In this document: positions 4,354 through 26,124 of the stretch, piece after piece | Numbering within the stretch: position 1 is the stretch's first letter | Layout: each line of letters begins with the position of its first letter | Assembly: GCA_964426385.1 (NCBI GenBank) | Contig: CAYRQF010000003.1 | Location: 22,938-86,937, forward strand | Length of the DNA: 64,000 nucleotides | Source of the DNA: an uncultured Candidatus Saccharibacteria bacterium | GTDB lineage: Bacteria; Patescibacteriota; Minisyncoccia; Phycocordibacterales; CSBR16-119 | Direction: 5' to 3' | The notes under the pieces: generated by a model | Seen by the model: the letters and a program-made list of their open reading frames with translations, nothing else | What the model was told of the DNA's origin: nothing | Databases searched by the model: none | Position numbers and translations under genes: made by a program

Positions 4354-6099
4354 ATGGAAATTAATGATTTAGCGAAAAAAAGACATACTTTGGCCCACCT
4401 TTTGGCCGCGGCGACTCTCGAGCACTATCCGGATACGAAATTGACCCTCGGGCCCGCTATAGATAATGGTTTCTACTATGATATGGAGTTTTCGAAGCCT
4501 CTAACTGATGCTGATCTACCAAAAATCGAGAAATCCATGAAGAAACTCCTTTCTAAGTGGACAGAATTCTCTCATAGAGAGGTTTCGGTTGACGAAGCTC
4601 GTCTGATTTTTGCCGAAAACCCTTATAAACTCGAACTTATCGAAGAAATATCCGCAAAAGGTGAGCCAATTACTCTATATATATGTGCTGGCTTCGAAGA
4701 TCTCTGTCGTGGAGGGCATTCCGAGAATCCTGCCAGGGAGATTGACGTTGAGTCATTCAAGCTCGACAAGGTTGCCGGTGCCTATTGGCGCGGAGATGAG
4801 AAAAACAAGATGCTAACCCGTGTTTACGGATTGGCCTTTGAAAATAAAGCCGAATTAGACGTCTATACCAAAATGATGGCTGATGCCAAGGAGCGAGATC
4901 ACCGAAAACTCGGAAAAGAGCTTGATTTGTTTACATTTTCTGAGCTCGTGGGTCCAGGATTACCTCTTTTTACCCCAAAAGGTACTATTTTACGTGATTT
5001 GATTGTAGAAAAGATTCAAAATCTTCAGAAAAAGTATGGCTACCAGAAGGTTACGATCCCGCATATTACTAAAAAGGAACTTTATGAGACTTCCGGCCAC
5101 TGGACTAAGTTCGGAGACGAGCTTTTCAAGGTAAAAGGTGTCAGCAACGTAGAATTTGTGATGAAGCCTATGAATTGCCCTCATCATACTCAGATTTATG
5201 CTTCAAAACCCCGAAGTTATAAGGATTTACCGATTCGATACATGGAAACAGGTGTTGTTTATCGTGATGAACAGGCGGGTGAACTTCTAGGGCTCTCGCG
5301 TGTACGCGCAATTTCACAGGATGACGGACATTTGTTCGTTACACCGGACCAAATAGAGGAAGAAATAACCAATATAGTGAGTATTATCAAGCAATTCTAT
5401 ACATCTCTAGGGATGTGGAAGGAGGGCAACTTCTGGGTTTCTCTTTCTGCTCGCGATCCGGAAAATCCTGATAAATATTTGGGTGGGGCTGATGTTTGGG
5501 ACAACGCTGAAGCCATACTAGAGAGTATCGCCAAGAAAAACGACCTTCCTTATAAGAAAGTCCTTGGAGAAGCCGCATTTTATGGACCAAAACTAGATTT
5601 CCAGTTCAAGGACGCTATTGGCAGACAGTGGCAGCTGGGTACTGCGCAGCTCGACTTCAACCTTCCAGCGAGATTTAAGCTTGAATATACTGATAAAGAT
5701 GGGCTTAAGAAGGCTCCAGTCATGATTCATAGAGCGGTAGCCGGCTCTCTAGAGAGATTTCTCTCGGTCGCTATCGAACACTTTGCCGGCAACTTCCCAT
5801 TCTGGCTCGCGCCGGTTCAATTGGCTATTATTCCTATAAAGGACGACGTGCATGGAGCTTTTGCCAAGGAAATACATGAGAAAATGCTGAATCAAGGCAT
5901 TCGCGCAGACCTAATGGACGGAAACGAAGGTTTCGGCAAGCGTGTCCGAGAAGCCAAGAATCAAAAAGTCACATTTATCATGGTTATCGGTGATAAAGAA
6001 GTTGAATCGAAAATATTCAAACTCGAAGGTGTAGAAACTTTCGAAAATCAAACTTTGGAAGAAATAGAAAGTAAGTTTTCGGAACTCAACTCGATTTAA
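4354..6099 (+). CDS. thrS: threonyl-tRNA synthetase (short form without N-terminal TGS domain)
   Basis: N2 editing domain, class II core, HRKLGKELDLF motif. 581 aa. Confidence 0.95.
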   Translation: MEINDLAKKRHTLAHLLAAATLEHYPDTKLTLGPAIDNGFYYDMEFSKPLTDADLPKIEKSMKKLLSKWTEFSHREVSVDEARLIFAENPYKLELIEEISAKGEPITLYICAGFEDLCRGGHSENPAREIDVESFKLDKVAGAYWRGDEKNKMLTRVYGLAFENKAELDVYTKMMADAKERDHRKLGKELDLFTFSELVGPGLPLFTPKGTILRDLIVEKIQNLQKKYGYQKVTIPHITKKELYETSGHWTKFGDELFKVKGVSNVEFVMKPMNCPHHTQIYASKPRSYKDLPIRYMETGVVYRDEQAGELLGLSRVRAISQDDGHLFVTPDQIEEEITNIVSIIKQFYTSLGMWKEGNFWVSLSARDPENPDKYLGGADVWDNAEAILESIAKKNDLPYKKVLGEAAFYGPKLDFQFKDAIGRQWQLGTAQLDFNLPARFKLEYTDKDGLKKAPVMIHRAVAGSLERFLSVAIEHFAGNFPFWLAPVQLAIIPIKDDVHGAFAKEIHEKMLNQGIRADLMDGNEGFGKRVREAKNQKVTFIMVIGDKEVESKIFKLEGVETFENQTLEEIESKFSELNSI

Positions 6100-6220
6100 T
6101 TTCTAAAACTTTTTAAATCAACATGTTCATAGTTATGAACAGTTTTTTCGTATTGACAGTACGAAACATTTTAATGTCCGATATAATATAGGTATTAAAA
6201 ATTATAAGTTTTATCATTGT

Positions 6221-9200
6221 ATGAAATTGCAACGAGCATTTTTCTTGGTTATCGCATTAGTATTTCTAGTCGGCTTCACAGTTACTGTATCAGGACCGGG
6301 CGGTGCATCACAGAGAGCACAGGTGACTGGTGCTGTATCGAATCAATCTATCAGAGGCTACTCTCTGGTAAACGCAGACACTGATACGATAATCGGACCA
6401 CTCTCCGATGGTCAAACAATCGATCTCGCAGAGCTTGGCACGAATCATGTAAATATCGTTGCAGAGACATCTCCTTCTGTCGTCGGTAGTGTTGCGTTTC
6501 ATCTTGATGATCTTGCTCGTGTTGTCAAGAATAGCGCTCCATATGCTCTCGGCGGACACAACAACGCCGGCAATTTCTACGCGGCGAATCTCTCGGTCGG
6601 AGATCATACACTAAAGACTCAGGCATTTACTCTGGCCCGTGCTCGCGGACTGGGTAGTGCTGTAAGCGAGATTCGATTCAGCGTCGTCGGAGGATCGCCG
6701 AGATCGTCTGGTGGTCAAACTCAGGCTAGTTCTGATTCAACGACACCCATCTCTAACACACAGCAGACTCATTCGACTCCTGGCAATGTTGCGAATGTAA
6801 CAGGTGCTGAAGTCCAAGAAATCAAATCTTTCACTCTAATAAATGCTGACACCAACCAAGAGATAGTGGCGATAGAGAACGGTGCAGTTTTAGATATTCA
6901 GAATCTCGGTACCACGAATCTCACCATCAGGGCCAACGCTACTCCAACTAATGTCGGCTCAGTTAAGTTCTACCTTGATAGTGTGGCGGTGCGGACAGAC
7001 AATCTTTTTCCGTATACCAATGTCGCGAGTACAACAACTGATGATTATCGACCATGGTCATTTACTCCGGGACAAGAGTACTCAATAACAGCAATACCAT
7101 TTAGTCTCTCTCGCGCTCGCGGTGTAGAGGGTACACCGCTAACTGTTTCTTTCACCATCGGGCAAAATCCAGTCGGTGGGCATGAACCTGTAGTTGGACG
7201 ATCTATGGACCCTTCTGTTCCTGCTATGGGGTGTCTAACTGCTACGGTTACCAATGACCCAAATGGTGGCAATAACCCAGGCACCATAACCATCGATTGG
7301 CCAGATGTTTCTGGACATCCATACTATAAAGCTTGGAGAATTCAGAATGGACAAGTGGAAGTATCTACCGAAAATCAGGGTGGTGCCGTTACATATAACT
7401 CTATGACCCCTGGAACATGGACGATCAGAGTAGCTTTCCTTGAAGCGGGCGCACTACCAAACACAAGTGCAGACTGGGGACCAGAGTCTGAAATCAGTAA
7501 TCTCGTCATAAGTACTAGTATCCCAGGTCCTGTAACAACTACAACATGCGGGCAAGAGCCAGTCGAGTCTGCACAGCTCAAAGTGTTCCTTGGTGGAGCA
7601 TACAACTCCTCTACAGGACTTATGTCCACTGCACTTAATGATGCAAACGTTATACCTCTCACTGAACCTTACACGGGAGAAGGTTATCAGTTTACTAACG
7701 GCTCAGGCTCATCGATTTCTTCTGGCGTCCTCAACGCTACAGGAAATGACGCAATCGTTGATTGGGTTATCGTCGAACTACGAAATCAAAACAACAATCT
7801 AGATATAGTAAGTTCTCGCCCAGCACTACTACAAGCAGATGGAGAAGTCGTTGGTCTAAACGGCACTACTCCGATATTTGACTCTTTCTCTTCGGGCACA
7901 TACTACGTAGTCGTCCATCACCGAAACCACTTGGCTGTCATGACTGCGAATCCGGTCAACATCAGTAATTCTGTAGACTTGACCAACTCAACGCTCTGGG
8001 GAACCAATGCCGCCAAATTGGTCAGCGGAACAAAGGTTCTATGGCCAGGTGATGTTAATAATGATGGTCTCGTAAAATACACAGGCGGAAACAACGACAG
8101 AGATCCGATCCTCCAAGTCGTGGGCTCAAATACGCCAAATAATGTTGTTACAAACGCCTATGCAAAAGCTGACCTAAACATGGATAGCACTGTTAAGCAT
8201 ACTGGTACGAAGAACGACAGAGACATTATTTTCCAGTCGATAGGTTCAGTAGATCCAACAGTAGTGAATGTGGAACAATTACCTCAACCATCTAGTACCA
8301 CCATCACTTCTATACAGGTAGTAAATACACAGGGTGTGGTACAGCAGACACTTTCTGCTGGGCAGACTATCAACATAGGTACTCAAAATGGTGGCTACGG
8401 AACAAGCATTGCTCTCAAAGCCAACACTAGTACTAGTCCTGTACCAGGAAGTGTTAAATATACCCTCACGCGCGCAGGCAATACGCATGAAAATATAGAT
8501 AACGCTGCTCCATTCTCATCTCATGGTGATACAGGAGGAAACTATACAGCCTGGACCAGCCTACAGCCAGGCGCATATCATCTAACCGCTTTGCCATATG
8601 ATGGAGCTAATGCCACAGGAGCATCAGGTACGGGTGCAGACTTCGACTTCGTTGTCGTAAACAATGATACTGTCGCCCCTCTCGCGCCACAGAATGTATC
8701 AATCAATTACCGATCGGCAGATGAGATAAGACTCTCATGGAGTCCTTCAGTTGGTGCGACGAACTATCAGGTAGTAAGGACAGGTAATGGACAGACATTC
8801 CCACTTCAGTCTGGTACAACTTTTAACGACACCACTGGGCTAACAAGCAATGGAACATTCTCTTATGTGGTCACTGCCATTAACTCAAATGGTCAGGTGT
8901 CGCCTAACTCAACGTCTATCGATGCTCCGACTCTGTCACCAGCCTTCACAGCCGGTACACTGGTTGCTCCAAATGCCAACAATACCCAGGTTAGAGCACT
9001 GCCAGAGAATCCGACGCTTGTTGGAACTGTTAACACTACGAACAACGGATCTGTTGTTACCGGAACATCACCTTCAGGGCATGTTGTCTGGGTAAAGGGC
9101 GTTACCCCAGCTCCAGATGTCCGATATCTCCGAACCACATTTACCAGCCCTGCACTATCTGGTCCAGGCTGGGTAGATCAGACAAAGCTGATCACGTATG

Positions 9201-12200
9201 TTGCGCCGGCTGCACCACTGCCTCCAACTAACTTCACAGGCTCTGGCACATCAACCTCGAACATCAACCTCACATGGACAGATGTTGCTACAAATGAGAC
9301 AGGGTATGAGGTTCAGAGAGCGGCACTAACTGATACGAATTTTACTAGTCCGACAACGACCACTTACGGACCAAACTCTAACGCCACCTCGATATCTACC
9401 GGCCTCTCTGCGGGTACCGCATATCTATTCCGCATTAGAGCAGTTAGTTCGACAAGCGGACTCAATTCTGTGTGGGTTTACTCTGCCCCTGCTTCGATCT
9501 CTACGCAGGCTGCTCAGACAGCACCGAATGCACCAACTAACCTCACTGGTTCTGCTTCGTCGACATCACAAATAAATCTCTCATGGACAGATAATGCGAA
9601 TAATGAAACAGGCTTCACTCTTAATAGGGCTACAGCTCCTGATTTCAGTTCCGGATTTGTCACCACTAACGTGCCAGCAAACAGTCCGACAGCTCCAAGC
9701 ACGGTTAACCATCCTGTCACAGGGCTTGCTGCAGGACAGACATACTACTTCCAGGTTAAAGCGATAAATGGCACCGGAGATTCCGCTTGGGCAACTCCAA
9801 ACCCTCTTTCTGTGGCTACACAGAATGTTGTGGCCGGCACATGTAATCCTGGTACAGTTGCGCCAATGCTTCCACCGAACAACTCACCGGTTAATGACTT
9901 GTCTAGAACGAATGGTGCCAACAGATCTGTGCAGCTATCATCAGCTGTTACGGGTGCTAATCAGATAACGATATGTTGGGACACTGTTGCTCAGAGAACT
10001 ATAAGCGGCAGTATCTCTGTCTACAGGAAATCAGGTTACACTTCTACGAGCTGGGGTACAGCGATAGCTACTTTGGCTAATACAGAGACAAGTTATGTAG
10101 ACAATAGTGTTACCCAAGGCACTTATTACGAATACAAAGTATCTTTCTCACAGAGTTCAACTTCATCAGCAAGCGGTGTTAGCACTAACGGTACAGCCGC
10201 AGGATACATAGCTACTGGTATAAATGTTCCTGAGGAATCCAGCAGAGGTAAAATGGCCCTAGTTATAGACAACAGTATGGTAACCGGCACTAACGGAAGC
10301 GCTCCAACTGGAGGAGATTCAGCGCTTATGTCTAAAGTAAACACTCTAATAGATGACCTAAATGCTGACCGATGGACCGTCTATCCTATATACGTAGGAC
10401 GTGGTGATACCGTAGCAAGCGTCAAAGCGCTTATCGTTGCGCAGAATCCGGCCGCCATCTACTTGCTAGGACATGTTCCAGTAGATAAGACTCACACAAT
10501 GTCTCCTGACGGTCACGGAGATCAGATACCTTGGTCTTCAGACGCTTATTATTCCGTGTCAGGTACGTACGGAACAACTGTTGCCCCTGTTTATCAGATC
10601 GGCCGAGTCGATGCGTTCAAGATGGAGGTATTCGGCGCCGGTAATCCTTCTAGTGATGCTACCGCCGCTACAGCAGGAGAGAAAACTGTAATAGGAAATT
10701 ATCTGGACAAAGTACACAATTACAAGATTGGCTCCACTACTGTTCAGCAGAGAGCTATTATCAAGGACGCCCTTGATCACGCTTATTCCGGCTTCACTAG
10801 CGCACAAAATGCTACCGTTGGCGCTTGGTCAACATTCCCTTCAGTTGTTGGTTTGGCAAATACATATGTGACCAACGAGAGAGGAACTCTCTTGACTCCG
10901 TCTCTACAGGGCTCGAATGACACATACCTACTCATGCTTGCACAATCTGGTGGACAGTGTGACAGAGATAACGATTCAGCCACTGGAACATCTGCGGGAT
11001 TTGCGGCGATAAGCGGCGGAGCTGTGTTCAACATGGCCGGCGGCAGCCGTTTCGGAAGCTTCGATAACTGTATATCTTTCCGTGAAAATAACTTCTTAAA
11101 AGCGCTGCTGTTCGGTGGTAAAGGAATGGTTAGTCTCTATAGCTTAGATCATCACTGGTATCTCCACTCTCTGGCCATGGGACAGAATATTGGTTATGCG
11201 ACCAAGGTGTCCATGAATAATCACTCTACTCAGGTTTATACACCAGTCAGTTGGTATCAACAGCGAAATTACAACGCTTTTATGAGTCCACTCGGCGATC
11301 CATCTATTCGCGCCTCATACTTTACCATCCCGTCGACGTTTACTGCGAGCGGTACGGCAGGAAACCCTATAAACTTCTCATGGAGCAGTGTTTCAGGAGC
11401 AGAAGGCTACAATGTCTACAAGATTACTTCATCTGCTGTGACTAAACTTAACAGCTCGATGATAGCAAGTACGTCATACACAGGATCTGAAATATATACC
11501 TCAGGAGCCAAATACATGGTGACTGCGCTCGACCTTACGACCTCAGGAAGCGGTGGAACATATTATAGAGAATCCCTCGGAAAGATGACTCTCACAACAG
11601 GTGGAGGCGGAGGAGACTTGGCAGCTCCGACTACACCAGGAAGCTTCGCGGTGAGTGGAACAACTGCCTCAAGCGTAAATCTTACATGGACGGCCTCTAC
11701 AGGTAATCCAGTAGGAGAGGCGGTAACTTACAAGATCCTCCGAAGCAGTGCGACAAACGGCACATATACTCAGGTTGGAACCGATACTGCTTCACCTTAC
11801 TCCGACACGACTGTTACTGCAGGCAACACTTACTACTACAGGATTACAGCTTCTGATGCTGCAAGTAACACTTCACAGCCTGCACCCTCAGCGTCTACAG
11901 GCATCTCTGCTACAACTGTAGACAACCAAGCACCTTCTGCACCGGCAGGACTTATGTCGACAGCACAGACGACGGGAAGCATTACACTCACTTGGAACGC
12001 CTCCACGGGTAACCCTGTAGGCGAGACCATTAACTACAAGGTCTTCCGAAGTACGACAGCTAACGGAACATACACTCAGACAGGTAGCTCTACAACTAAT
12101 ACAACATTCACTGATTCAGGACTAACAGCGGGAACAACTTATTACTATAAAGTGTCTGCAACAGACGCTTCCAATAACTCTTCCGCTCAAAATCCTTCTT

Positions 12201-14989
12201 CGGGTTACGGTGCTGCGACAAGTGCTCAAGCGGACACTCAGCCACCAACCGTACCGACAGGTCTTGCTGTTACAGCAACTACAGCTTCAAGTATTTCGTT
12301 ATCTTGGAATGCTTCAACTGATGTTGGAGGAAGTATCGTACAAGGGTATCTCATTTATCGTAGCGCAACGAGCGGTGGTACATATGACACCATAGGAAGT
12401 TCTAGTGGTACTTCATATACTGATTCTGGTCTTGCCCCTAATACAACTTACTATTACAAGGTTACGGCAATTGATAACTCCCCTAACGGCAATCAGTCTG
12501 CTCAGACACAGTATGTTTCTGGTACAACTGCTGCTGTTACCGGAGGTGGCTCAGGACAGGTACTTGGTCTCATGGGTGTATACGCAGGACCAAACAACAG
12601 TGAGGACGTAACACCGGGAGCTAACCCAGCAGGTGTGTCAGACTACTACGTTGACTGCGTCGCTGGAAATGACAGTAATAATGGAACTTCAGCCGCTACT
12701 GCATGGAGAACACTAGAAAAATTCAACACTTCAGGCGCCGGCCAGATGCAACCAGGATCTAGAGCGTTCTTCAAGAGAGGATGTACGTTCTATAAAACAG
12801 ATGTATATCCGATGGGAATATATGATGGTGGAATCCTCAGGGTTTCTAACTCAGGAAATGCATCAAACTATGTAGAATATAGGGCCTACGGCACAGGAGC
12901 GGCTCCAGTATTCTCTGGCGCGGTACCTGTTACTGGCTGGACTCAACACCAGGGAAATATTTACAAGGCAAACATCGGAGCAAATAAGAACGTTCGATAC
13001 TTGTTTGCCAACAACTCTGGCCAGACACTCGCTCGCTTCCCAAACAAGAGTGCTGGTAATACAGTCTGGATGAAGACAGATCATATCACTAACCCTGGAG
13101 GAGTATCTCTCAATGTCGAAGACTCGTCTTCTACTGATGGAGCACTTCCAACCTCTACAGCAAATAACCTAGCTGGAGGTGAATATGCAGCTAGGTTTAT
13201 GAACTGGGCCTTCGTGGTTGCGCCGATTACAGCCCATTCAGGTCAGACCATTACCGTTTCATTCCAGGGTGGAATGAACCAGGTGCCATGCTACATACCA
13301 AACTGCTCTAACACCATTTATCCTGAAGCTGGCTGGGGATACTTCGTTCAGAACAAGCTATCCCTCCTAGACACCGCAGGTGAGTGGTACTACGACAATG
13401 CCTCTGGTCAACTCTACTTCTGGGCGCCAGGCGGAGTGAATCCGAGCACTATGACTGTAGAAGCGGCAGTTCACCGAAACGGTGTTCACATGCTCGGTGG
13501 TATCCATCATGTAAAGGTAAAGAACCTTGCGTTCGAGAAGTTCAACAAATTCAGTTACGGAAGTTCTGACAAGGGTGCGGCGGTGTTCATTCAAGACTGG
13601 GATGGATCGTCTGGAGTACTCAGTAACATCGTTGAGAATGTTGAGATCAAGAATACTCCTATCGGTGTTCGCGTCGAAGGTGTCGAATCAACAGGACCAT
13701 CAAACGGTAACAAAATACTCAATTCTTATATTCATGACATATTCGACATTGGAATGCTCTCATACGGTCTCGGCCACCTCTACCAGGGTAACGTGATTGA
13801 GAATATCGCTCTGGCCCCTGAGCTTGCCGCTGACACCGATGAGTGGAACCATATGTACGGCTTCGTCTCAACCGGTGGTAACGTTGACTTCATCGGCAAT
13901 ATAGTACGAAATATCGGTTACATCGGAGTTAACTATGTTCAGAACGGTGAAATCCGGAATAACTTAATCGAAAACATATCTCTAACTATTAACGATGGTT
14001 GTGGTATCTGCGCCGATGGAGCAGAGAATGATCTCCTCGTGAAGAGAAATGTTGTTAACCATGTGTACGGAAACATTGTTGGCCTACCTTCAACATTCGT
14101 TCATGCGACAGCGCTTGGCTCAGGTATATCAACAGGCGATAGGAATAGTATCGGTGGAATCTTCGAGGAGAATGTTGTTAACGATGCTGGAAACTCTGGT
14201 ATCACGTTCGACAACAATACCTTCTCGGCGAATATGCAGATGAGGAATAACACGATTTACACGAATCAGCCGGGTAACTCTAACGGTGCTAAGGGTATCT
14301 CAATGTATGATCAGTCTGTGGGCGTATATCACCCAGGAGAGAACAATGCCCAGTCACTCTATGACTTCGATTTGGGTCACAGTGTATACGGTAACAAGGT
14401 TTACACACTACATCAGAACAACAACAGTCTCTATGAGGCACGCGTTCTAACTTCTACAAGTGGTGGACATACAGACTTTGGAGATTATTGGGGCAATTAC
14501 TTCTTCCACCCATACTCTACTAACACAATCGTGAATTATCGACCAGCACCGTTGGTAACCACAGGAGACCTTATCTGGACTCTCACAAATGCACCAGTTT
14601 ATTCAACGGCAAGCACGAACACATCTTCCGGCACTGTGTCAACAGGAACAAAAGGTTATATCTCAGGTACTGAGTCAAACTACCGATGGTTCGTAACTTT
14701 CAACAACGGACAATCTGGCTGGATGAGGTCTTATGAAATCGCAATGGCAAAGAAGAACATCGCAGAATTCCAGCAGGTTTATAACCAGCCTCCATCCGGA
14801 CAGCCTCAGAACACACAGCGTGGAGTAGGGGATTCACTGCCGACGCTTTATGTCAACACAACTGGCTCTCCGATGTCCGCGAATATCGGTTCCGGTAAGT
14901 GCGGAAGTAATGGTCAGACACTCGCAAATCCTTACCCACTTAACACCTTTGCTGATGCGATTGTTCCAGAGATATGTAGCGAGCAATAA
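6221..14989 (+). CDS. giant secreted surface protein (2922 aa): N-terminal repeated beta-sandwich-like domains, dockerin-like Ca-binding repeat pair, at least 6 fibronectin-III domains, central Cys/His globular domain, C-terminal right-handed parallel beta-helix
   Basis: Signal peptide. FN3 signature xAPxNLxxxxxSxxxIxLxWT...NETGY repeated. DVNNDG...NDRD appears twice. NxxIxNN beta-helix rungs near the C-terminus. Confidence 0.9.
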   Translation: MKLQRAFFLVIALVFLVGFTVTVSGPGGASQRAQVTGAVSNQSIRGYSLVNADTDTIIGPLSDGQTIDLAELGTNHVNIVAETSPSVVGSVAFHLDDLARVVKNSAPYALGGHNNAGNFYAANLSVGDHTLKTQAFTLARARGLGSAVSEIRFSVVGGSPRSSGGQTQASSDSTTPISNTQQTHSTPGNVANVTGAEVQEIKSFTLINADTNQEIVAIENGAVLDIQNLGTTNLTIRANATPTNVGSVKFYLDSVAVRTDNLFPYTNVASTTTDDYRPWSFTPGQEYSITAIPFSLSRARGVEGTPLTVSFTIGQNPVGGHEPVVGRSMDPSVPAMGCLTATVTNDPNGGNNPGTITIDWPDVSGHPYYKAWRIQNGQVEVSTENQGGAVTYNSMTPGTWTIRVAFLEAGALPNTSADWGPESEISNLVISTSIPGPVTTTTCGQEPVESAQLKVFLGGAYNSSTGLMSTALNDANVIPLTEPYTGEGYQFTNGSGSSISSGVLNATGNDAIVDWVIVELRNQNNNLDIVSSRPALLQADGEVVGLNGTTPIFDSFSSGTYYVVVHHRNHLAVMTANPVNISNSVDLTNSTLWGTNAAKLVSGTKVLWPGDVNNDGLVKYTGGNNDRDPILQVVGSNTPNNVVTNAYAKADLNMDSTVKHTGTKNDRDIIFQSIGSVDPTVVNVEQLPQPSSTTITSIQVVNTQGVVQQTLSAGQTINIGTQNGGYGTSIALKANTSTSPVPGSVKYTLTRAGNTHENIDNAAPFSSHGDTGGNYTAWTSLQPGAYHLTALPYDGANATGASGTGADFDFVVVNNDTVAPLAPQNVSINYRSADEIRLSWSPSVGATNYQVVRTGNGQTFPLQSGTTFNDTTGLTSNGTFSYVVTAINSNGQVSPNSTSIDAPTLSPAFTAGTLVAPNANNTQVRALPENPTLVGTVNTTNNGSVVTGTSPSGHVVWVKGVTPAPDVRYLRTTFTSPALSGPGWVDQTKLITYVAPAAPLPPTNFTGSGTSTSNINLTWTDVATNETGYEVQRAALTDTNFTSPTTTTYGPNSNATSISTGLSAGTAYLFRIRAVSSTSGLNSVWVYSAPASISTQAAQTAPNAPTNLTGSASSTSQINLSWTDNANNETGFTLNRATAPDFSSGFVTTNVPANSPTAPSTVNHPVTGLAAGQTYYFQVKAINGTGDSAWATPNPLSVATQNVVAGTCNPGTVAPMLPPNNSPVNDLSRTNGANRSVQLSSAVTGANQITICWDTVAQRTISGSISVYRKSGYTSTSWGTAIATLANTETSYVDNSVTQGTYYEYKVSFSQSSTSSASGVSTNGTAAGYIATGINVPEESSRGKMALVIDNSMVTGTNGSAPTGGDSALMSKVNTLIDDLNADRWTVYPIYVGRGDTVASVKALIVAQNPAAIYLLGHVPVDKTHTMSPDGHGDQIPWSSDAYYSVSGTYGTTVAPVYQIGRVDAFKMEVFGAGNPSSDATAATAGEKTVIGNYLDKVHNYKIGSTTVQQRAIIKDALDHAYSGFTSAQNATVGAWSTFPSVVGLANTYVTNERGTLLTPSLQGSNDTYLLMLAQSGGQCDRDNDSATGTSAGFAAISGGAVFNMAGGSRFGSFDNCISFRENNFLKALLFGGKGMVSLYSLDHHWYLHSLAMGQNIGYATKVSMNNHSTQVYTPVSWYQQRNYNAFMSPLGDPSIRASYFTIPSTFTASGTAGNPINFSWSSVSGAEGYNVYKITSSAVTKLNSSMIASTSYTGSEIYTSGAKYMVTALDLTTSGSGGTYYRESLGKMTLTTGGGGGDLAAPTTPGSFAVSGTTASSVNLTWTASTGNPVGEAVTYKILRSSATNGTYTQVGTDTASPYSDTTVTAGNTYYYRITASDAASNTSQPAPSASTGISATTVDNQAPSAPAGLMSTAQTTGSITLTWNASTGNPVGETINYKVFRSTTANGTYTQTGSSTTNTTFTDSGLTAGTTYYYKVSATDASNNSSAQNPSSGYGAATSAQADTQPPTVPTGLAVTATTASSISLSWNASTDVGGSIVQGYLIYRSATSGGTYDTIGSSSGTSYTDSGLAPNTTYYYKVTAIDNSPNGNQSAQTQYVSGTTAAVTGGGSGQVLGLMGVYAGPNNSEDVTPGANPAGVSDYYVDCVAGNDSNNGTSAATAWRTLEKFNTSGAGQMQPGSRAFFKRGCTFYKTDVYPMGIYDGGILRVSNSGNASNYVEYRAYGTGAAPVFSGAVPVTGWTQHQGNIYKANIGANKNVRYLFANNSGQTLARFPNKSAGNTVWMKTDHITNPGGVSLNVEDSSSTDGALPTSTANNLAGGEYAARFMNWAFVVAPITAHSGQTITVSFQGGMNQVPCYIPNCSNTIYPEAGWGYFVQNKLSLLDTAGEWYYDNASGQLYFWAPGGVNPSTMTVEAAVHRNGVHMLGGIHHVKVKNLAFEKFNKFSYGSSDKGAAVFIQDWDGSSGVLSNIVENVEIKNTPIGVRVEGVESTGPSNGNKILNSYIHDIFDIGMLSYGLGHLYQGNVIENIALAPELAADTDEWNHMYGFVSTGGNVDFIGNIVRNIGYIGVNYVQNGEIRNNLIENISLTINDGCGICADGAENDLLVKRNVVNHVYGNIVGLPSTFVHATALGSGISTGDRNSIGGIFEENVVNDAGNSGITFDNNTFSANMQMRNNTIYTNQPGNSNGAKGISMYDQSVGVYHPGENNAQSLYDFDLGHSVYGNKVYTLHQNNNSLYEARVLTSTSGGHTDFGDYWGNYFFHPYSTNTIVNYRPAPLVTTGDLIWTLTNAPVYSTASTNTSSGTVSTGTKGYISGTESNYRWFVTFNNGQSGWMRSYEIAMAKKNIAEFQQVYNQPPSGQPQNTQRGVGDSLPTLYVNTTGSPMSANIGSGKCGSNGQTLANPYPLNTFADAIVPEICSEQ

Positions 14990-15632: not shown

Positions 15633-15663
15633 ACACAAAAGCCCCGACCGGGGCTTTTGTGTT
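15633..15663 (+). terminator. rho-independent terminator
   Basis: aaagccccgaccggggcttt hairpin followed by T-rich sequence. Confidence 0.6.
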
Positions 15664-15674
15664 ATAATCCTCCC

Positions 15675-16091
15675 ATGACACAGGGTGAAAAGGTGGCCAA
15701 TGCCGATGACTTCAAAATAGTTAGGCCAAAAAAGGGTCTCGGAATGGGGCTTGTAACGCTACGCTCATGGAAGAAGGGTGAGAAAATTATCGAATATATC
15801 GGCATCAGGAAGACGAATAAATCTGTAGAAGGGGATGAGACTAAATATCTCTTCGAGGTGAACAGTAAGTATACTGTCGACGGAAGTCCTCGTTGGAATA
15901 TCGCCAGATACATCAATCATTCGTGCTTGCCGAATGCCGAAGCGGATATCATAAAAGGGAAGATCTGGATCAAGGCAGAGAAGAATATCTTGGCAGGGGA
16001 AGAACTGACTTATGATTATGGAAAAGAGTATTTTGATGAGTTTATAAAGCCATCTGGCTGTAAGTGCCAGAAGTGCGATAAGAATAAATAA
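15675..16091 (+). CDS. SET-domain protein (putative protein-lysine methyltransferase)
   Basis: NHSCLPNAE, ELTYDYG and a post-SET Cys cluster CKCQKCDK. The ORF-track start at 15657 overlaps the terminator, so the ATG at 15675 is preferred. Confidence 0.85.
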   Translation: MTQGEKVANADDFKIVRPKKGLGMGLVTLRSWKKGEKIIEYIGIRKTNKSVEGDETKYLFEVNSKYTVDGSPRWNIARYINHSCLPNAEADIIKGKIWIKAEKNILAGEELTYDYGKEYFDEFIKPSGCKCQKCDKNK

Positions 16092-23082: not shown

Positions 23083-26000
23083 GTGGTAGCAAATATGTGT
23101 CTTTCATCGCGAATAATAAAAAAAAGCATCGCTTTATTTTCCTTGATTATATTAGGCTTTTTCTTTGCTTGTACTGCTGACGCAGCAACAATTACGGTAA
23201 ACAATGGTACGTCGACCGTGGCAGTCGATGCTTCGTGCTCAATTCGTGAAGCGATAGAGAATGCAAATGATAACGCAGCTACGAATGTGGATTGTACGGC
23301 AGGTTCAGGGACAGACACTCTCGATATACAAACAGATATAGCGCTAACGCTACTTGATCACTCAGGAGTTTCTTCAGATTTTGCAGTTCCTTCGATAATG
23401 GAACCAGTAGTTATACAGGGTAATGGTCATAGCATCGCTCGTTCTGGAGTTACTAGTTTTGGTTTTGCAGACTTTTCAACCACGGTATCTTTGTCTGATA
23501 TTACTATGAGTAACTTTTCTCAGAATGTTTTTGAGGGAGATGGACCACTTACTATTGAAAATTCTACTTTTTCTGAGAACGCTGACTCTGTCGCATATAC
23601 TAATTTCGGTGGTAGTGCGCATCCTTGGGTCATAACAGACTCAGTGTTTACAAACAATAGCAGTACTGATCATGGGGTAATAACCAAAGAGGATGGTGGA
23701 ACTTTGACTATTTCAGGCACTATTTTTTCCGATAATACAAATTACGGTACGTTTGATGGAAGTGCGGTGAGATATTTAAATGGCAATTCCTCGGAAGTCG
23801 TATCTATATCAGACAGCGTGTTCGAGAATAATGTTTATACTGTAGGTGGATGCGGTGCGTTTGGTGTTTCCGCTTCTCAAGATGTAAACATCGAGATAGA
23901 TAATACTGTTTTTGATTCGAACATATCAGAAGCTTGCGGAGGAGGGGTGTCTGTTGAATCAGGATTTGCTTTTGCAACTATCTCGCTTGATATTACAAAC
24001 TCTCTTTTTAAGAATAATGTTGCCCGCGGAACAGGTATTTCTGCAAAAAGCGGGGGAGCTATGTACGTTCAGAATGGGATGAACCTAACACTTACGAACA
24101 ATACTTTTTTCGGTAATTCTTCGCAGGTGAATGGAGGGGCCATCCAGATTCACAATGAGGCAGGAGTGATTGCTATCGAAGCAAAACACAATACTTTCTA
24201 TGGCAATTCTTCTGCGGATGGTGATGGTAATGACATTTACATAGAAACAGGAGCAGGTGATACTTCAGTTTTTGAGAATAATATTTTTGCTAGTGGAGGT
24301 GATGAGTGTGGGGGTGATCTTAGTAGTTTCACTTTTACGAACAATCTTTCGAGTGATGTAGACTGTGGCGGGACCCCGGCTACGTCTTTGGCTAGTGCGC
24401 TTGCTATGAACGGGGCAGGGATAGAGACACTCGCACTTCTAGCAGGAAGTAACGCAATTAATACTGGAATTGCGGGAACTTTAGGGTGTCCAGCAACAGA
24501 TGCTCGAGGTACGGCTAGACCTTCGGGTGTTGCTTGCGATATCGGAGCGTTTGAATTTGTGAACTCTGCTCCCACAGATATTTCCATATCAAATTCTTCT
24601 ATAGAGGAAGGTCAGGAGGTGGGTAATGCTATCGGAGGCCTTGATACTGTTGATGCAGACACTGGTGATACTCATACATATACTATAGCGTGCACCGTCC
24701 CGGGCGCTGATGATGGATCTTTTAGTATCTCAGGGGATTCACTCCGAAGTGACGAAGTGTTTAATCATGAAGTAAAAAGTTCATACATAGTTTGCATACG
24801 AACGACAGATAGTTTTGGTGGGACCTACGATGAGATATTTACTATAACCATAGATCAGGCAGACACATCCTCGAGCGGTAGCAGTTCTGGTCCATCCACA
24901 CCAACACCTCCTGTGCAACCAGTCGTACCAGTAACCCCAATTATTCCAGTCTCTCCTTTGCCCGAGATTCCAGCACCGGTACCAGGCCCTATTTTAGAAA
25001 CTCCAGAAACACCATCTCCGACTCCTGAGACACAGGACGAAACCCCAACAGATGATAATCCTGGGCAAGACCCCTCTCCGAGCTTTCCAGGCGGTGATAG
25101 TGAATCAGATGCGAGTCCTCAAGGCTCGAGTGATGTGATCAGGGATATCGGGGGAGTTCTCGGGGCGGCAATAGAAGAGATTCCGACCAATGTCACGGAC
25201 ACTATCGCAGTAGCTGGCGTAGCGCTACCGGCAATAGTATTCGCACTGAGCCAGCCTGCCGTCGTTGTTAATGTGGTATCTATCCCAATACGATTGTTTA
25301 ATCTAATCCCTGTTTGGCTAGGACTACGTCGCAAGAAGCGACCTTGGGGAACGGTCTATGATTCTGTGACCAAACAACCTCTTGATCCTGTTTATGTAGT
25401 ATTAAAGGATTTGCGTGGAAGAGAAGTCGCCACAACGATAACTGATATAGATGGGCGATTCGGATTCTTGGTTCCAGCGGGTAAATACAATATATCTGTT
25501 AAAAAGGATAATTACGAGTTTCCGTCAAAGAAACTTTCAAACAACTCCAAAGATGAACTTTATGAGAATCTCTATTTTGGAGAGCCTGTAGAAATATCTG
25601 GACAAGAAGATTTACTCATAAAGAATATACCGATGGATGCTACGAATTTTAACTGGAACGAGTTTGAGAAATCTCAGAATAAGTCCCTAATGAAGTTCTA
25701 CTCCAAGAGTGAGCTATTTATCGCTCGTTTCGCCAGTGTGTTATTTTGGGCAGGCCTCGTCGTTTCGATAGTTCTATTGTTTGGCGACCCGACGACACTA
25801 AACTACGTATTATTCGGGGTATATGCCGTTGTCATGATTCTGAGGGTGCTAGGTGTGAGACCAAAGAAGCCGGGTTATGTAACGGAGCAATCGACAGGAT
25901 ACCCTCTATCCTTTGGTGTTATCAAAGTATATTCAGAATCGACCGATACTGAGATCGCTCATAGTGTTATAAGTAAAACCGGTAAATACTACGTTTTGGT

Positions 26001-26124
26001 TCCTAAGGGAAGATATTACGTATCTATACTTAAAAAAGTCGGAGAAGACGAGTACTCAAACGTTTTCAGGTCAGAAAGTATGTTGGTAAAGAGGGGATAT
26101 ATCGCAGACAATCTAAGCGTCTAG
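23083..26124 (+). CDS. large surface protein: Pmp-like (GGAI) parallel beta-helix + choice-of-anchor-Q-like CDIGAFEF motif + cadherin-like domain + Pro-rich stalk + TM segments + two carboxypeptidase-regulatory-like domains
   Basis: Signal peptide. Repeated GGA(I/M) rungs. Linker PSTPTPPVQPVVPV. Hydrophobic helices near 25140-25330 and 25700-25860. Confidence 0.8.
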   Translation: MVANMCLSSRIIKKSIALFSLIILGFFFACTADAATITVNNGTSTVAVDASCSIREAIENANDNAATNVDCTAGSGTDTLDIQTDIALTLLDHSGVSSDFAVPSIMEPVVIQGNGHSIARSGVTSFGFADFSTTVSLSDITMSNFSQNVFEGDGPLTIENSTFSENADSVAYTNFGGSAHPWVITDSVFTNNSSTDHGVITKEDGGTLTISGTIFSDNTNYGTFDGSAVRYLNGNSSEVVSISDSVFENNVYTVGGCGAFGVSASQDVNIEIDNTVFDSNISEACGGGVSVESGFAFATISLDITNSLFKNNVARGTGISAKSGGAMYVQNGMNLTLTNNTFFGNSSQVNGGAIQIHNEAGVIAIEAKHNTFYGNSSADGDGNDIYIETGAGDTSVFENNIFASGGDECGGDLSSFTFTNNLSSDVDCGGTPATSLASALAMNGAGIETLALLAGSNAINTGIAGTLGCPATDARGTARPSGVACDIGAFEFVNSAPTDISISNSSIEEGQEVGNAIGGLDTVDADTGDTHTYTIACTVPGADDGSFSISGDSLRSDEVFNHEVKSSYIVCIRTTDSFGGTYDEIFTITIDQADTSSSGSSSGPSTPTPPVQPVVPVTPIIPVSPLPEIPAPVPGPILETPETPSPTPETQDETPTDDNPGQDPSPSFPGGDSESDASPQGSSDVIRDIGGVLGAAIEEIPTNVTDTIAVAGVALPAIVFALSQPAVVVNVVSIPIRLFNLIPVWLGLRRKKRPWGTVYDSVTKQPLDPVYVVLKDLRGREVATTITDIDGRFGFLVPAGKYNISVKKDNYEFPSKKLSNNSKDELYENLYFGEPVEISGQEDLLIKNIPMDATNFNWNEFEKSQNKSLMKFYSKSELFIARFASVLFWAGLVVSIVLLFGDPTTLNYVLFGVYAVVMILRVLGVRPKKPGYVTEQSTGYPLSFGVIKVYSESTDTEIAHSVISKTGKYYVLVPKGRYYVSILKKVGEDEYSNVFRSESMLVKRGYIADNLSV

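What the first reader, a model, noticed from the sequence alone, without database searches (positions are those of the whole stretch)
6221..14989. 2922-aa giant secreted multi-domain surface protein
This single ORF has, in order: a signal peptide; three copies of a ~130-aa domain (xxNADTxxxIxxLxxGxxIDLxxLGT...VGSVxFxLD); a tandem pair of dockerin-like or EF-hand-like Ca-binding repeats; two blocks of fibronectin-III domains (8672-9800 and a near-tandem triplet 11614-12530); a ~330-aa non-repetitive domain; and a C-terminal right-handed parallel beta-helix (~13480-14320) typical of pectate-lyase/adhesin folds. It has its own upstream region with a 7-4-7 palindrome. Such giant proteins are candidate host-attachment or polysaccharide-processing machines. 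The dockerin-like segment hints at assembly onto a cohesin-bearing partner.
Basis: partly seen in the sequence, partly recalled or inferred. Interest (0 to 1): 0.6.

Follow-up and report, generated by a model that had tools for sequence, protein, structure and literature searches.

The report
Giant Saccharibacteria surface protein, two enzyme-like heads
This is a real 2922-residue secreted protein of an ultrasmall epibiotic bacterium (Candidatus Saccharibacteria) that strings Ig-like and fibronectin-III spacers around a sugar-cleaving-type beta-helix and a very conserved gingipain-fold domain that has lost the protease's cysteine and histidine; it is probably a tool for gripping or cutting surface glycans, an expected kind of protein with one unexpected part.

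Summary
The ORF 6221-14989 (+) is real: 2922 aa, 306 kDa. It is not an assembly artefact. Collinear orthologues of 2789, 2805 and 2856 aa occur in independent assemblies, and the ORF holds no DNA repeat of 25 bp or more. The host is a Candidatus Saccharibacteria genome.

- an N-terminal signal-like segment;
- three copies of a ~125-aa beta-sandwich;
- about eight fn3 domains, including the tandem triplet;
- a non-repetitive central domain;
- a C-terminal right-handed beta-helix.

Corrections:
- The beta-helix module (aa 2112-2785) is closest to glycoside hydrolase GH141 BT_1002 (Foldseek E 2e-19), not to pectate lyases.
- The central domain (aa 1330-1702) has the gingipain (peptidase C25) fold (E 8e-11). 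It carries an invariant Ser where the catalytic Cys sits and Gly where the His sits.
- That domain belongs to a large family of secreted proteins that I did not find described. It is the most conserved part of the protein (82-95% identity between orthologues; flanking genes 41-79%).
- The "dockerin-like" pair is a real duplicated Asp/Asn-rich motif. It matches neither the dockerin nor the EF-hand definition and is absent from the orthologues.
- The palindrome looks like the thrS terminator.

Best reading: a surface glycan-binding or glycan-cleaving protein of an epibiont.

The parts
6124..6148 (+). 7-4-7 palindrome (6124-6141) followed by T6, 25 nt after the thrS stop codon. It is probably a weak intrinsic terminator of thrS.
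   Evidence: Sequence read. RNA fold is -7 kcal/mol, z -0.74. A hairpin with one G-U wobble is kept at the same place in L005, but the T-run is not. The consensus terminator scan did not call it.
6153..6187 (+). Promoter-like hexamers: perfect TTGACA (6153-6158) and perfect TATAAT (6182-6187). The spacer is a non-canonical 23 nt. The -10 box and the leader down to the ATG are conserved in L005.
   Evidence: The sigma-70 scan did not call it because of the spacing. Promoter function is inferred.
6221..6310 (+). N-terminal signal peptide or signal anchor (aa 1-30, MKLQRAFFLVIALVFLVGFTVTVSGPGGAS).
   Evidence: It is the only Kyte-Doolittle segment above 1.6 in the protein. There is no LPXTG-type motif and no second hydrophobic segment. 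The N-terminus is conserved in orthologues L005 and P0121, and in P0146 at 38%. No signal-peptide predictor was available.
6344..7204 (+). Domain A copies 1 and 2 (aa 42-168 and 199-328): a ~125-aa Ig-like beta-sandwich joined by a Ser/Thr/Gln-rich linker.
   Evidence: Self-similarity E 4e-14. An HMM built from the copies finds three copies in each orthologue. There are only weak links to Big_7 (E 5e-4), to All3314 (7b5h, E 7e-4) and to the lambda J Ig domain.
7232..7570 (+). Ig/fn3/PKD-like domain (aa 338-450).
   Evidence: Weak PKD hit, E 0.048. The assignment rests on the sequence pattern only and is tentative.
7574..8296 (+). Variable module (aa 452-692).
   Evidence: No Pfam family at E<=1, no PDB sequence hit, no PS00018 EF-hand match. 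In L005 and P0121 it is replaced by two Ig-like modules. It is shared at 37% identity with P0123.
8297..8674 (+). Domain A copy 3 (aa 693-818).
8675..9820 (+). fn3 (aa 819-905), a ~90-aa unassigned basic segment (aa 912-998, absent from orthologues), then fn3 (999-1098) and fn3 (1102-1200).
9836..11605 (+). Conserved cassette: an fn3-like domain (aa ~1249-1329), the gingipain-fold (C25-like) domain (aa 1330-1702, nt 10208-11326), and an fn3 (aa 1703-1795). Ser1609 sits at the position of the catalytic Cys and Gly1577/Gly1578 at the His-Gly position. Invariant family residues, in protein numbering: G1417, H1418, V1421, D1430, H1432, W1438, D1441, Y1444, G1448, P1456, R1462, D1464, Y1494, D1516, G1578, F1603, G1608, S1609, G1654, G1658, G1692, D1693.
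   Evidence: AlphaFold2 model: pLDDT 78.8, pTM 0.87. Foldseek: Kgp 4rbm E 8e-11, TM 0.61; RgpB 4ief E 4e-7. Family size: 1042 representatives at E<=1e-3 and 1574 clusters. 19 of 65 members hit PF01364. Identity to orthologues is 82-95%. The same cassette aligns with P0333 and P0355.
11618..12535 (+). Tandem triplet of fn3 domains (aa 1800-1900, 1902-2003, 2006-2105).
   Evidence: Pfam fn3 best stretch is aa 2012-2097. Pairwise identity between copies is 42-53%. There is no DNA-level repeat of 25 bp or more.
12554..14575 (+). GH141-like right-handed parallel beta-helix module (aa 2112-2785) with an inserted beta-sandwich (GH141_M-like, aa ~2230-2410). Conserved acidic residues: D2151, D2384, E2388, D2392, D2592.
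   Evidence: Pfam GH141_M scores 29.0 bits against a cutoff of 27 on the piece. PDB sequence hits are 9rx2 (E 0.004) and BT_1002 5mqp (E 0.013). AlphaFold2 model: pLDDT 80.2, pTM 0.86. Foldseek: 5mqp E 2e-19, GH120 3vst E 2.5e-13.
14576..14986 (+). C-terminal tail (aa 2786-2922). A low-confidence, possibly SH3-like stretch is followed by a small, confidently modelled terminal domain with Cys2894 and Cys2919.
   Evidence: pLDDT is below 50 for model residues ~665-760 and 86-95 for ~761-810. Function is unknown.

Best explanation
A Sec-exported, cell-surface protein of a Candidatus Saccharibacteria bacterium, an obligate epibiont lineage. It presents two enzyme-like modules on a long chain of beta-sandwich spacers.

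Shown:
- The order of parts is: N-terminal signal or anchor; a fast-evolving N-terminal third (three domain-A beta-sandwiches plus exchangeable modules); fn3 spacers; a very conserved gingipain-fold domain that lacks the Cys-His dyad; three more fn3; and a GH141-like beta-helix with an inserted beta-sandwich.

Inferred:
- The beta-helix module binds or cleaves a polysaccharide, in the way GH141, GH120 and GH136 enzymes and phage tailspike depolymerases do. The family-invariant Asp2592 and Glu2388 are the candidate catalytic or ligand-binding residues.
- The gingipain-fold domain uses the remnant of the protease cleft (invariant Ser1609, Asp1516, His1418, His1432, Asp1430, Asp1441, Arg1462, Asp1464) to bind a ligand or to carry out a non-cysteine reaction.
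- The fn3 and Ig-like chain holds these heads away from the cell.
- The variable N-terminal modules adapt the protein to different surfaces.
- The likely target is glycan on the host cell envelope or in the surrounding matrix, for attachment and/or local degradation.
For: - ORF and anatomy.
- Organism and synteny: L005 is an uncultured Saccharibacteria MAG with the same gene order.
- Export: a single N-terminal hydrophobic segment and no other anchor motif.
- Beta-helix: a confident model whose best structural matches are all glycan-active enzymes. These are GH141 BT_1002 (E 2e-19), GH120 XylC, GH136 lacto-N-biosidases and capsule depolymerases. GH141_M is above the Pfam cutoff. Asp2592 and Glu2388 are invariant in 71/71 family members. 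Asp2592 aligns with the BT_1002 nucleophile D523 in a low-scoring HMMER alignment (residue roles from PMC10154630).
- Gingipain-fold domain.
- Strong constraint on that domain: 82-95% identity between orthologues, while flanking genes are 41-79% and ThrRS is 60%.
- Glycan context: family members combine the domain with Beta_helix, Laminin_G_3, RGI_lyase, Sialidase N-terminal, GH85_C and GH99-like domains.
- Literature: essential envelope proteins with VCBS, dockerin and fn3 domains in Southlakia epibionticum were proposed to target host glycans (PMC10633639).
Against: - No activity, localisation or expression data exist.
- The second GH141 catalytic residue (D564) has no conserved counterpart. 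Identity to BT_1002 is only 13-14%, so the module could be a binding module only.
- The window's gingipain-fold copy departs from about 18 positions that are nearly invariant in the wider family.
- The host or substrate is unknown.
- If the N-terminus is the membrane anchor, the variable region would be proximal and the conserved heads distal. That is the opposite of the usual pattern for receptor-binding proteins.
- Genomic neighbourhoods of family members in other phyla gave no functional hint.
Confidence: 0.55

Rival explanations
1. It is a free, nutritional exo-enzyme. The protein is released after signal-peptide cleavage and depolymerises environmental polysaccharide (biofilm or sludge matrix) to feed the cell. 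It has no role in host recognition.
For: No wall-anchoring motif is present. The closest beta-helix relatives are T9SS-secreted proteins of Flavobacteriales, which are typical polymer degraders. The structural matches are catabolic glycosidases.
Against: A 300-kDa chain of ~20 spacer domains is costly for a soluble enzyme in a reduced genome. The N-terminal third turns over modules between close relatives, as surface-interaction proteins do. No sugar-uptake or catabolic genes flank the gene.
Confidence: 0.2
2. It is a structural envelope or S-layer-type protein. Its enzyme-like domains are inactive scaffolds, and it serves only as coat or spacer.
For: The composition is rich in Thr/Ser/Gly/Asn/Ala, the pI is acidic (5.15) and Cys is scarce. 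The protease dyad is lost. The second GH141 catalytic Asp is not conserved.
Against: No SLH or other S-layer domain was found. Invariant polar residues in both heads and the extreme conservation of the gingipain-fold cassette point to a specific ligand or reaction. The gene occurs only in a narrow set of relatives.
Confidence: 0.1
3. It is a cellulosome-like component. The duplicated Asp/Asn-rich motif is a dockerin that plugs the protein onto a cohesin-bearing scaffold.
For: Two tandem motifs have a DxNxDG start. Two of the 65 family members scanned carry true Dockerin_1 domains. A dockerin-domain protein is essential in S. epibionticum (PMC10633639).
Against: There is no Dockerin_1 hit at E<=1. 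Positions 9 and 12 of the EF-hand loop are not acidic. The module is missing from orthologues L005 and P0121. No cohesin was found among the ORFs scanned.
Confidence: 0.04
4. It is an active gingipain-type cysteine protease displayed on the surface.
For: The domain has the gingipain fold, and 19 of 65 relatives hit Peptidase_C25.
Against: All 65 sequences have Ser at the Cys244-equivalent position. Gly occupies the His211-equivalent in 59 of 65 and the Gly212-equivalent in 65 of 65. The window domain itself has no PF01364 hit.
Confidence: 0.03
5. It is an assembly artefact that joins several genes.
For: All three closest metagenome contigs break inside the gene. This shows the region is hard to assemble.
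Against: Uninterrupted collinear ORFs of 2789 aa (L005, on a 105-kb contig), 2805 aa (P0121) and 2856 aa (P0146) exist in independent assemblies. The ORF has no direct DNA repeat of 25 bp or more. The flanks are syntenic.
Confidence: 0.01

Closest known systems
Glycoside hydrolase family 141 (BT_1002 of Bacteroides thetaiotaomicron, PDB 5MQP; Xyn141E of Acetivibrio thermocellus)
   Same: [quoted passage not shown] The shared LLDxAGEWY(Y/H)D motif of the insertion (GH141_M) is present. This is the best structural match (E 2e-19, TM 0.57-0.59 on the target). An invariant Asp lies where the BT_1002 nucleophile D523 aligns (PMC10154630).
   Different: Identity is only 13-14%, and phmmer gives E 0.013. 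No counterpart of the acid/base D564 is conserved. The module sits at the C-terminal end of a 2922-aa chain rather than in a ~600-aa periplasmic enzyme. Its closer relatives (about 30% identity) are uncharacterised T9SS cargo proteins of Flavobacteriales.
Gingipains Kgp/RgpB, peptidase family C25 (clan CD)
   Same: Both have the two-subdomain alpha/beta fold (E 8e-11, TM 0.61). Shared framework motifs are GRMIVIV/GKMALVI, LLVGD/LLGH, SDxxY, (V/I)GR, F....[AG][CS]..GD[FW] and (F/M)GDP(S/T)L. An acidic residue is kept near the Glu152 position.
   Different: The catalytic Cys is replaced by Ser in 65/65 sequences. Gly replaces the catalytic His in 59/65, and the Gly that follows it is kept in 65/65. 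The window copy has no PF01364 hit. hhalign against RgpB is not significant. A different set of invariant His/Asp/Arg residues is present. The domain is flanked by fn3 on both sides.
Essential envelope proteins of Southlakia epibionticum with VCBS, dockerin and fn3 domains (SEML1_0891, _0315, _0890; PMC10633639)
   Same: They come from the same phylum and the same epibiotic lifestyle. They are exported proteins built from glycan-associated modules and were proposed to target host-cell glycans for adhesion or degradation.
   Different: No sequence comparison could be made here because those proteins were not available to the tools. The beta-helix and gingipain-fold heads are not mentioned for them.
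Phage tailspike / capsule depolymerases
   Same: They have a beta-helix head that binds and cuts surface polysaccharide of the cell to be attached to. They appear as structural matches at E 1e-7 to 1e-12.
   Different: They match more weakly than GH141 does. There is no trimerisation or particle-binding domain. The gene lies in a chromosomal housekeeping context.

Membership tests
Fibronectin type III (PF00041) | Match to the Pfam model above the gathering score | tested here: met
   115.9 bits against a cutoff of 25, with 5 significant stretches. Internal similarity shows about 8 units.
Glycoside hydrolase family 141 | Right-handed parallel beta-helix with an inserted beta-sandwich domain | tested here: met
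   AlphaFold2 model pTM 0.86. The top Foldseek hits are the BT_1002 chains, E 2e-19 to 7e-18.
Glycoside hydrolase family 141 | Sequence match to the family's insertion-domain model (PF21231 GH141_M) above the gathering score | tested here: met
   29.0 bits against a cutoff of 27 when aa 2101-2500 is scanned alone. The score is 25.9 bits in the whole protein, so the match is marginal. It covers only profile positions 91-154.
Glycoside hydrolase family 141 | Both catalytic aspartates (BT_1002 D523 nucleophile, D564 acid/base; PMC10154630) | tested here: inconclusive
   D2592 (71/71 in the family) aligns with D523, but in an HMMER stretch scoring only 1.8 bits. The residue aligned with D564 is Ala, and no conserved acid lies nearby. 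No residue-level structural alignment was available.
Glycoside hydrolase family 141 | CAZy-level sequence membership (dbCAN/CAZy HMM) and glycosidase activity | not testable with these tools
   No CAZy models were at hand. phmmer against BT_1002 gives E 0.013 and 13-14% identity.
Peptidase C25 (gingipain) | Gingipain catalytic-domain fold | tested here: met
   Foldseek: 4rbm E 8.2e-11, TM 0.61/0.52; 6i9a E 1.9e-10; 4ief E 3.6e-7. The next hit is at E 1.6e-3.
Peptidase C25 (gingipain) | Match to PF01364 above the gathering score | tested here: not met
   The window domain has no hit. 19 of 65 family members hit at E<=0.01, best 4.7e-8. The link is therefore at superfamily level, through relatives.
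Peptidase C25 (gingipain) | Catalytic Cys-His dyad (RgpB C244/H211) | tested here: not met
   Motifs were mapped onto the verified 1cvr sequence. Ser is 65/65 at the Cys position. Gly is 59/65 at the His position and 65/65 at the Gly212 position. The mapping is by motif and strand order, not by superposition.
Dockerin type I | Match to PF00404 Dockerin_1 | tested here: not met
   No family at E<=1 for aa 451-700, and none in the whole-protein scans.
Dockerin type I | Duplicated canonical 12-residue EF-hand Ca loop | tested here: not met
   No PS00018 match. Positions 9 and 12 are K/Y-type residues, not acidic. Both copies share a 6-residue insertion before NDRD.
Dockerin type I | Cohesin partner encoded in the genome | tested here: inconclusive
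   No cohesin was found among about 30 window ORFs scanned. The rest of the genome is not available.
Pectate lyase (Pectate_lyase_3 / PL families) | Sequence or best structural match to pectate lyases | tested here: not met
   No Pfam pectate-lyase or Beta_helix hit for the window protein. Pel9A 1ru4 is only rank 50, E 6.9e-4.
Sortase-anchored (LPXTG) surface protein | C-terminal LPXTG-type motif plus a hydrophobic tail | tested here: not met
   No LPxTG, LPx[AS]G, NPxTG or LAxTG motif, and no C-terminal hydrophobic segment.

The most novel reading that the evidence does not exclude
The gingipain-fold domain (aa 1330-1702) is not a dead protease. It would represent a large family that I did not find described: more than 1000 representative clusters in Bacteroidota, Planctomycetota, Verrucomicrobiota, Saccharibacteria and a Methanomassiliicoccaceae archaeon. 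In this family the clan-CD cleft has been rebuilt around an invariant Ser (in place of Cys) and invariant His/Asp/Arg residues. It would carry out a new reaction, or bind specifically, on envelope glycans or glycopeptides. It would be the functional core of this giant protein, which would explain why it evolves more slowly than the neighbouring housekeeping genes.
Probability: 0.2. Interest if true: 0.7.

Novelty: new variant of a known kind. Interest (0 to 1): 0.45.

Why it matters
Saccharibacteria and other Patescibacteria live attached to host bacteria, and the molecules that recognise or open the host surface are largely unknown. This protein offers two concrete, testable heads.

The first is a GH141-like beta-helix whose close relatives are uncharacterised. 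The second is a gingipain-fold domain with Ser in place of the catalytic Cys. That domain belongs to a widespread family for which I found no Pfam model, no solved structure detectable by sequence, and no paper in one literature search.

The conservation pattern shows where to look. The N-terminal third evolves fast, and the gingipain-fold cassette is more conserved than ThrRS. If either head acts on host envelope glycans, it would give a handle on host range of epibionts. It could also add a new glycan-active family.

Tried and rejected
- Word-indexed homologue search with the central domain found nothing. The exhaustive HMMER search was needed.
- Profile searches of PDB sequences with the central-domain family found only the trailing fn3.
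- hhalign of the family profile against verified RgpB sequence, both the fragment and residues 1-351, was not significant: Prob 0.6 and 0.3. The aligned N-terminal stretch was the expected one.
- The small genes downstream of the beta-helix module in the window and in L002 are not homologous. The idea of a conserved enzyme-partner pair was dropped.
- Consensus promoter and terminator scans of 5900-6400 found nothing.
- Genomic contexts of three family members in other phyla showed no consistent neighbours. One, a cluster of beta-helix proteins next to P0355, is a partial exception.
- No paralogue of any domain occurs elsewhere in the window.
- No paper was found for PDB 9rx2 or for a Ser-variant gingipain-like family.
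- The VELR-type module (aa 452-607) stayed unassigned.
Full report
**1. The observation**

The window carries one ORF at 6221..14989 on the + strand, 2922 codons, starting MKLQRAFF. The product is 305.7 kDa with pI 5.15. It is rich in Thr, Gly, Ser, Ala and Asn and has only 14 Cys.

The only strongly hydrophobic stretch is aa ~1-29, preceded by Lys2 and Arg5. There is no LPXTG-type motif and no second hydrophobic segment.

Chopping the protein into pieces and comparing them with the whole confirms the repeats:
- Three copies of a ~125-aa domain ("domain A") lie at aa 42-168, 199-328 and 693-822.
- fn3 units lie at aa 819-905, 999-1098, 1102-1200, ~1249-1329 and 1703-1795.
- The tandem triplet is at aa 1800-1900, 1902-2003 and 2006-2105, with 42-53% pairwise identity.

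Pfam sees fn3 with five significant stretches, and otherwise only a marginal GH141_M match. NCBIfam adds nothing beyond fn3-driven similarity.

**2. Organism and context**

The neighbours are ordinary chromosomal genes, almost all on the + strand:
- Upstream: ZIP transporter, NUDIX, ThrRS.
- Downstream: a YceI-like protein, DsbA-like, FKBP, DUF975, SIMPL, RNase H, ComEC, an MBL-fold protein, an M50 peptidase and EF-G.

There are no tRNA genes and no Rfam hits in the window.

A scan of species-representative genomes with the C-terminal 792 aa found a syntenic locus on a 105-kb contig of an uncultured Candidatus Saccharibacteria MAG (L005). Flanking proteins there are 41-79% identical to the window's. 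I therefore assign the window to a related Saccharibacterium.

**3. Not an artefact**

- L005 has an uninterrupted 2789-aa ORF in the same place.
- The exhaustive protein search returned a 2805-aa orthologue (P0121) and a 2856-aa distant homologue (P0146, ~32% identity). P0146 matches the N-terminal ~55 aa and is collinear from domain A copy 3 (aa ~716) to the C-terminus.
- The ORF contains no direct DNA repeat of 25 bp or more that could mislead an assembler.
- Three closer metagenome contigs (L001, L003, L004) all break inside the gene but keep its 3' end and the downstream synteny.

**4. The C-terminal module**

Only GH141_M matches, at 29.0 bits against a cutoff of 27 when the piece is scanned alone.

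PDB sequences give weak hits to an unpublished "parallel beta-helix repeat protein" (9rx2, E 0.004) and to BT_1002, the founding GH141 enzyme (E 0.013).

The homologue search gave 161 proteins:
- the Saccharibacteria orthologues, at 70-88% identity;
- two stand-alone proteins, at 41% and 36%;
- many Flavobacteriales, Bacteroidota and Fibrobacterota "right-handed parallel beta-helix repeat" proteins at ~30% identity, several with a T9SS sorting domain.

With 71 of these I obtained a model with mean pLDDT 80.2 and pTM 0.86. Its best solved-structure matches, in order, are:
- the BT_1002 chains (E 2e-19 to 7e-18);
- GH120 XylC (E 2.5e-13);
- GH136 lacto-N-biosidases;
- capsule lyases and phage depolymerases;
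- pectate lyase Pel9A, only at rank 50 (E 7e-4).

Viral predicted structures match less well than GH141 does.

BT_1002 uses D523 and D564 (PMC10154630). The chain numbering in the printed alignment is offset by 5, which I checked on both residues. D523 aligns with Asp2592, which is invariant in 71/71 family members. That alignment stretch scores only 1.8 bits. D564 aligns with Ala, and no conserved acid lies nearby.

Other conserved acids are D2151 and the D2384/E2388/D2392 cluster of the insertion-domain motif LDxAGEWYYD, which BT_1002 shares. I therefore call the module GH141-like and a candidate glycosidase. I do not call it a GH141 member.

**5. The central "non-repetitive" domain**

My first boundaries were about 60 aa too far downstream. 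The domain is aa 1330-1702.

Search results:
- The word-indexed search found nothing.
- The exhaustive search found 1042 representative proteins at E<=1e-3.
- A profile search found 1574 clusters. They are mostly Flavobacteriales and other Bacteroidota T9SS cargo. Planctomycetota and Verrucomicrobiota also occur.
- One 3383-aa protein of a Methanomassiliicoccaceae MAG has three copies of the domain and a GH99-like annotation.

No Pfam model covers the window copy. However, 19 of 65 relatives hit Peptidase_C25 at E<=0.01, best 4.7e-8.

A model built with 65 sequences has pLDDT 78.8 and pTM 0.87. Its only significant solved-structure matches are gingipains. These are Kgp 4rbm (E 8e-11, TM 0.61), 6i9a, and RgpB 4ief (E 4e-7). 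The next hit is at E 1.6e-3.

To place the catalytic residues I wrote out the RgpB sequence from memory and verified it against PDB 1cvr. Residues 1-223 and 205-351 were identical except for one residue, which I corrected. In that sequence His211 and Cys244 fall in YTGHGS and FIFDVACVNGDF.

The family motifs map as follows:
- Y-G-C-G-G-G-S maps onto the His211 motif.
- F-T-M-L-F-G-S-Y-F-G-D-W maps onto the Cys244 motif.
- The spacing agrees: 31-32 residues against 33 between the two sites, and 84 against 97 from the second site to the shared (F/M)GDP(S/T)L strand.

On this mapping the Cys position is Ser in 65/65 sequences (Ser1609 here). The His position is Gly in 59/65 and the following Gly is 65/65. 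An invariant Asp (Asp1516) sits near the Glu152 position.

This mapping is by motif and predicted strand order. hhalign against RgpB was not significant, and no residue-level superposition was available. The domain is thus a divergent C25-superfamily member without the Cys-His dyad.

The window copy keeps all 22 invariant positions. It departs from about 18 positions that are nearly invariant in the other phyla, and it lacks their ~30-residue DGKFDQS loop.

**6. Conservation mosaic**

I aligned the window protein with L005 and P0121. Identity by region:

| Region (aa) | Identity |
|---|---|
| 1-100 | about 51% |
| 101-1200 | 7-44%, with large gaps |
| 1201-1800 (fn3 + gingipain-fold + fn3) | 75-95% |
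| beta-helix module | 64-79% |
| 2001-2100 (last fn3 of the triplet) | 22-24% |

By comparison, ThrRS next door is 60% identical to its L005 counterpart, and the other flanking proteins are 41-79%.

The gingipain-fold cassette is therefore the slowest-evolving segment of the locus. This argues for a specific function, whatever that function is.

The N-terminal third changes by module exchange. The window's aa 452-692 module is replaced in both orthologues by two Ig-like modules. It recurs at 37% identity in another protein that also carries the gingipain-fold cassette (P0123).

**7. The remaining parts**

*Domain A.* An HMM from the three copies finds three copies at the same places in each orthologue. 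A nine-sequence profile gives only weak links, all to Ig-like beta-sandwiches:
- a domain of All3314 (7b5h, E 7e-4);
- the Ig domain of lambda tip attachment protein J;
- Pfam Big_7 (E 5e-4).

*The "dockerin-like" pair.* It is a genuine duplicated motif at aa 611 and 651. It fails the tests run:
- It has no Dockerin_1 hit at E<=1.
- It fails the PROSITE EF-hand pattern at positions 9 and 12.
- It lies in the exchangeable module.

A calcium-binding role is possible but untested. A cohesin partner has no support.

*The upstream palindrome.* It lies at 6124-6141, 25 nt after the thrS stop, and is followed by T6. It folds weakly (-7 kcal/mol, z -0.74). A hairpin persists at the same place in L005 without the T-run. 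It is best read as a thrS terminator.

*Promoter-like elements.* Perfect TTGACA and TATAAT hexamers follow at 6153 and 6182, but with a 23-nt spacer. The -10 box and the leader are conserved in L005.

**8. Mechanism**

Shown: the export-type N-terminus, the domain order, the two folds, the loss of the protease dyad, the invariant residues, and the conservation mosaic.

Inferred: the rest of the model, as follows.
- The protein is displayed on, or released from, the Saccharibacterium.
- The beta-helix head binds or cuts a polysaccharide.
- The gingipain-fold head binds a ligand or catalyses a non-cysteine reaction in the remnant cleft.
- The fn3 and Ig chain acts as a spacer.
- The variable N-terminal modules tune surface specificity.

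The glycan context of the gingipain-fold family supports a carbohydrate-related role. Members combine it with Beta_helix, Laminin_G_3, RGI_lyase, Sialidase N-terminal, GH85_C and GH99-like domains.

The proposal matches what Wang et al. suggested for essential envelope proteins of Southlakia epibionticum (PMC10633639).

Rivals, with my confidence in each:
- a soluble nutritional enzyme (0.2);
- a purely structural coat protein (0.1);
- a dockerin-mediated assembly (0.04);
- an active cysteine protease (0.03);
- an artefact (0.01).

**9. Verdict**

The protein is an expected kind of thing for an epibiotic Patescibacterium. Its specific architecture is a new variant. I did not find the Ser-for-Cys gingipain-fold family at its conserved core described, in Pfam, among solved structures by sequence, or in one literature search.

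Interest is 0.45.

Noticed in passing
window 50964-54368 (+): A 1134-aa class-I aminoacyl-tRNA synthetase carries a histidine-phosphatase domain in the middle of the catalytic region. The synthetase parts are tRNA-synt_1 at aa 20-499, tRNA-synt_1g at 769-858 and Anticodon_1 at 886-1025. The inserted domain is His_Phos_1 (E 4.8e-36) at aa 503-667.
   Followed up: no
window 23083-26124, 33374-36472, 55610-57508 (+): Three further large ORFs carry surface-protein-type domains: CarboxypepD_reg in a 1013-aa ORF, DUF11 plus SdrD_B in a 1032-aa ORF, and DUF11 in a 632-aa ORF. Two adjacent ORFs with no Pfam hit lie at 26167-27690 and 27811-29583. None shares a domain with the giant protein.
   Followed up: partly
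window 4354-6099 versus 9836-11605: ThrRS is only 60% identical to its L005 counterpart, while the gingipain-fold cassette of the giant gene is 82-89% identical. Either the constraint on the cassette is unusually strong, or this segment was exchanged recently between related Saccharibacteria. The two were not distinguished.
   Followed up: partly
P0122 (MCL2032946.1, Methanomassiliicoccaceae MAG): A 3383-aa archaeal protein annotated as GH99-like contains three copies of the fn3 plus gingipain-fold cassette. The family therefore crosses the domain boundary.
   Followed up: no
L018 2399-11537 (JGI 3300051089): One family member that fuses the gingipain-fold cassette to a Beta_helix domain (P0355) sits in a row of three beta-helix proteins. 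DUF1501/DUF1800 genes lie nearby. This hints at a recurrent association of the two domain types.
   Followed up: no
L001 2787-3203, L003 3428-3832, L004 3188-3598; window ~15657-16091: A small SET-domain protein is conserved between the YceI-like gene and the DsbA-like gene in all relatives. The window has a 144-aa TTG-start ORF at the same place. That ORF was not scanned.
   Followed up: no
window 6153-6187: Perfect TTGACA and TATAAT hexamers lie upstream of the giant gene but are 23 nt apart. The -10 box and the leader are conserved in L005, while the -35-like hexamer is not.
   Followed up: partly
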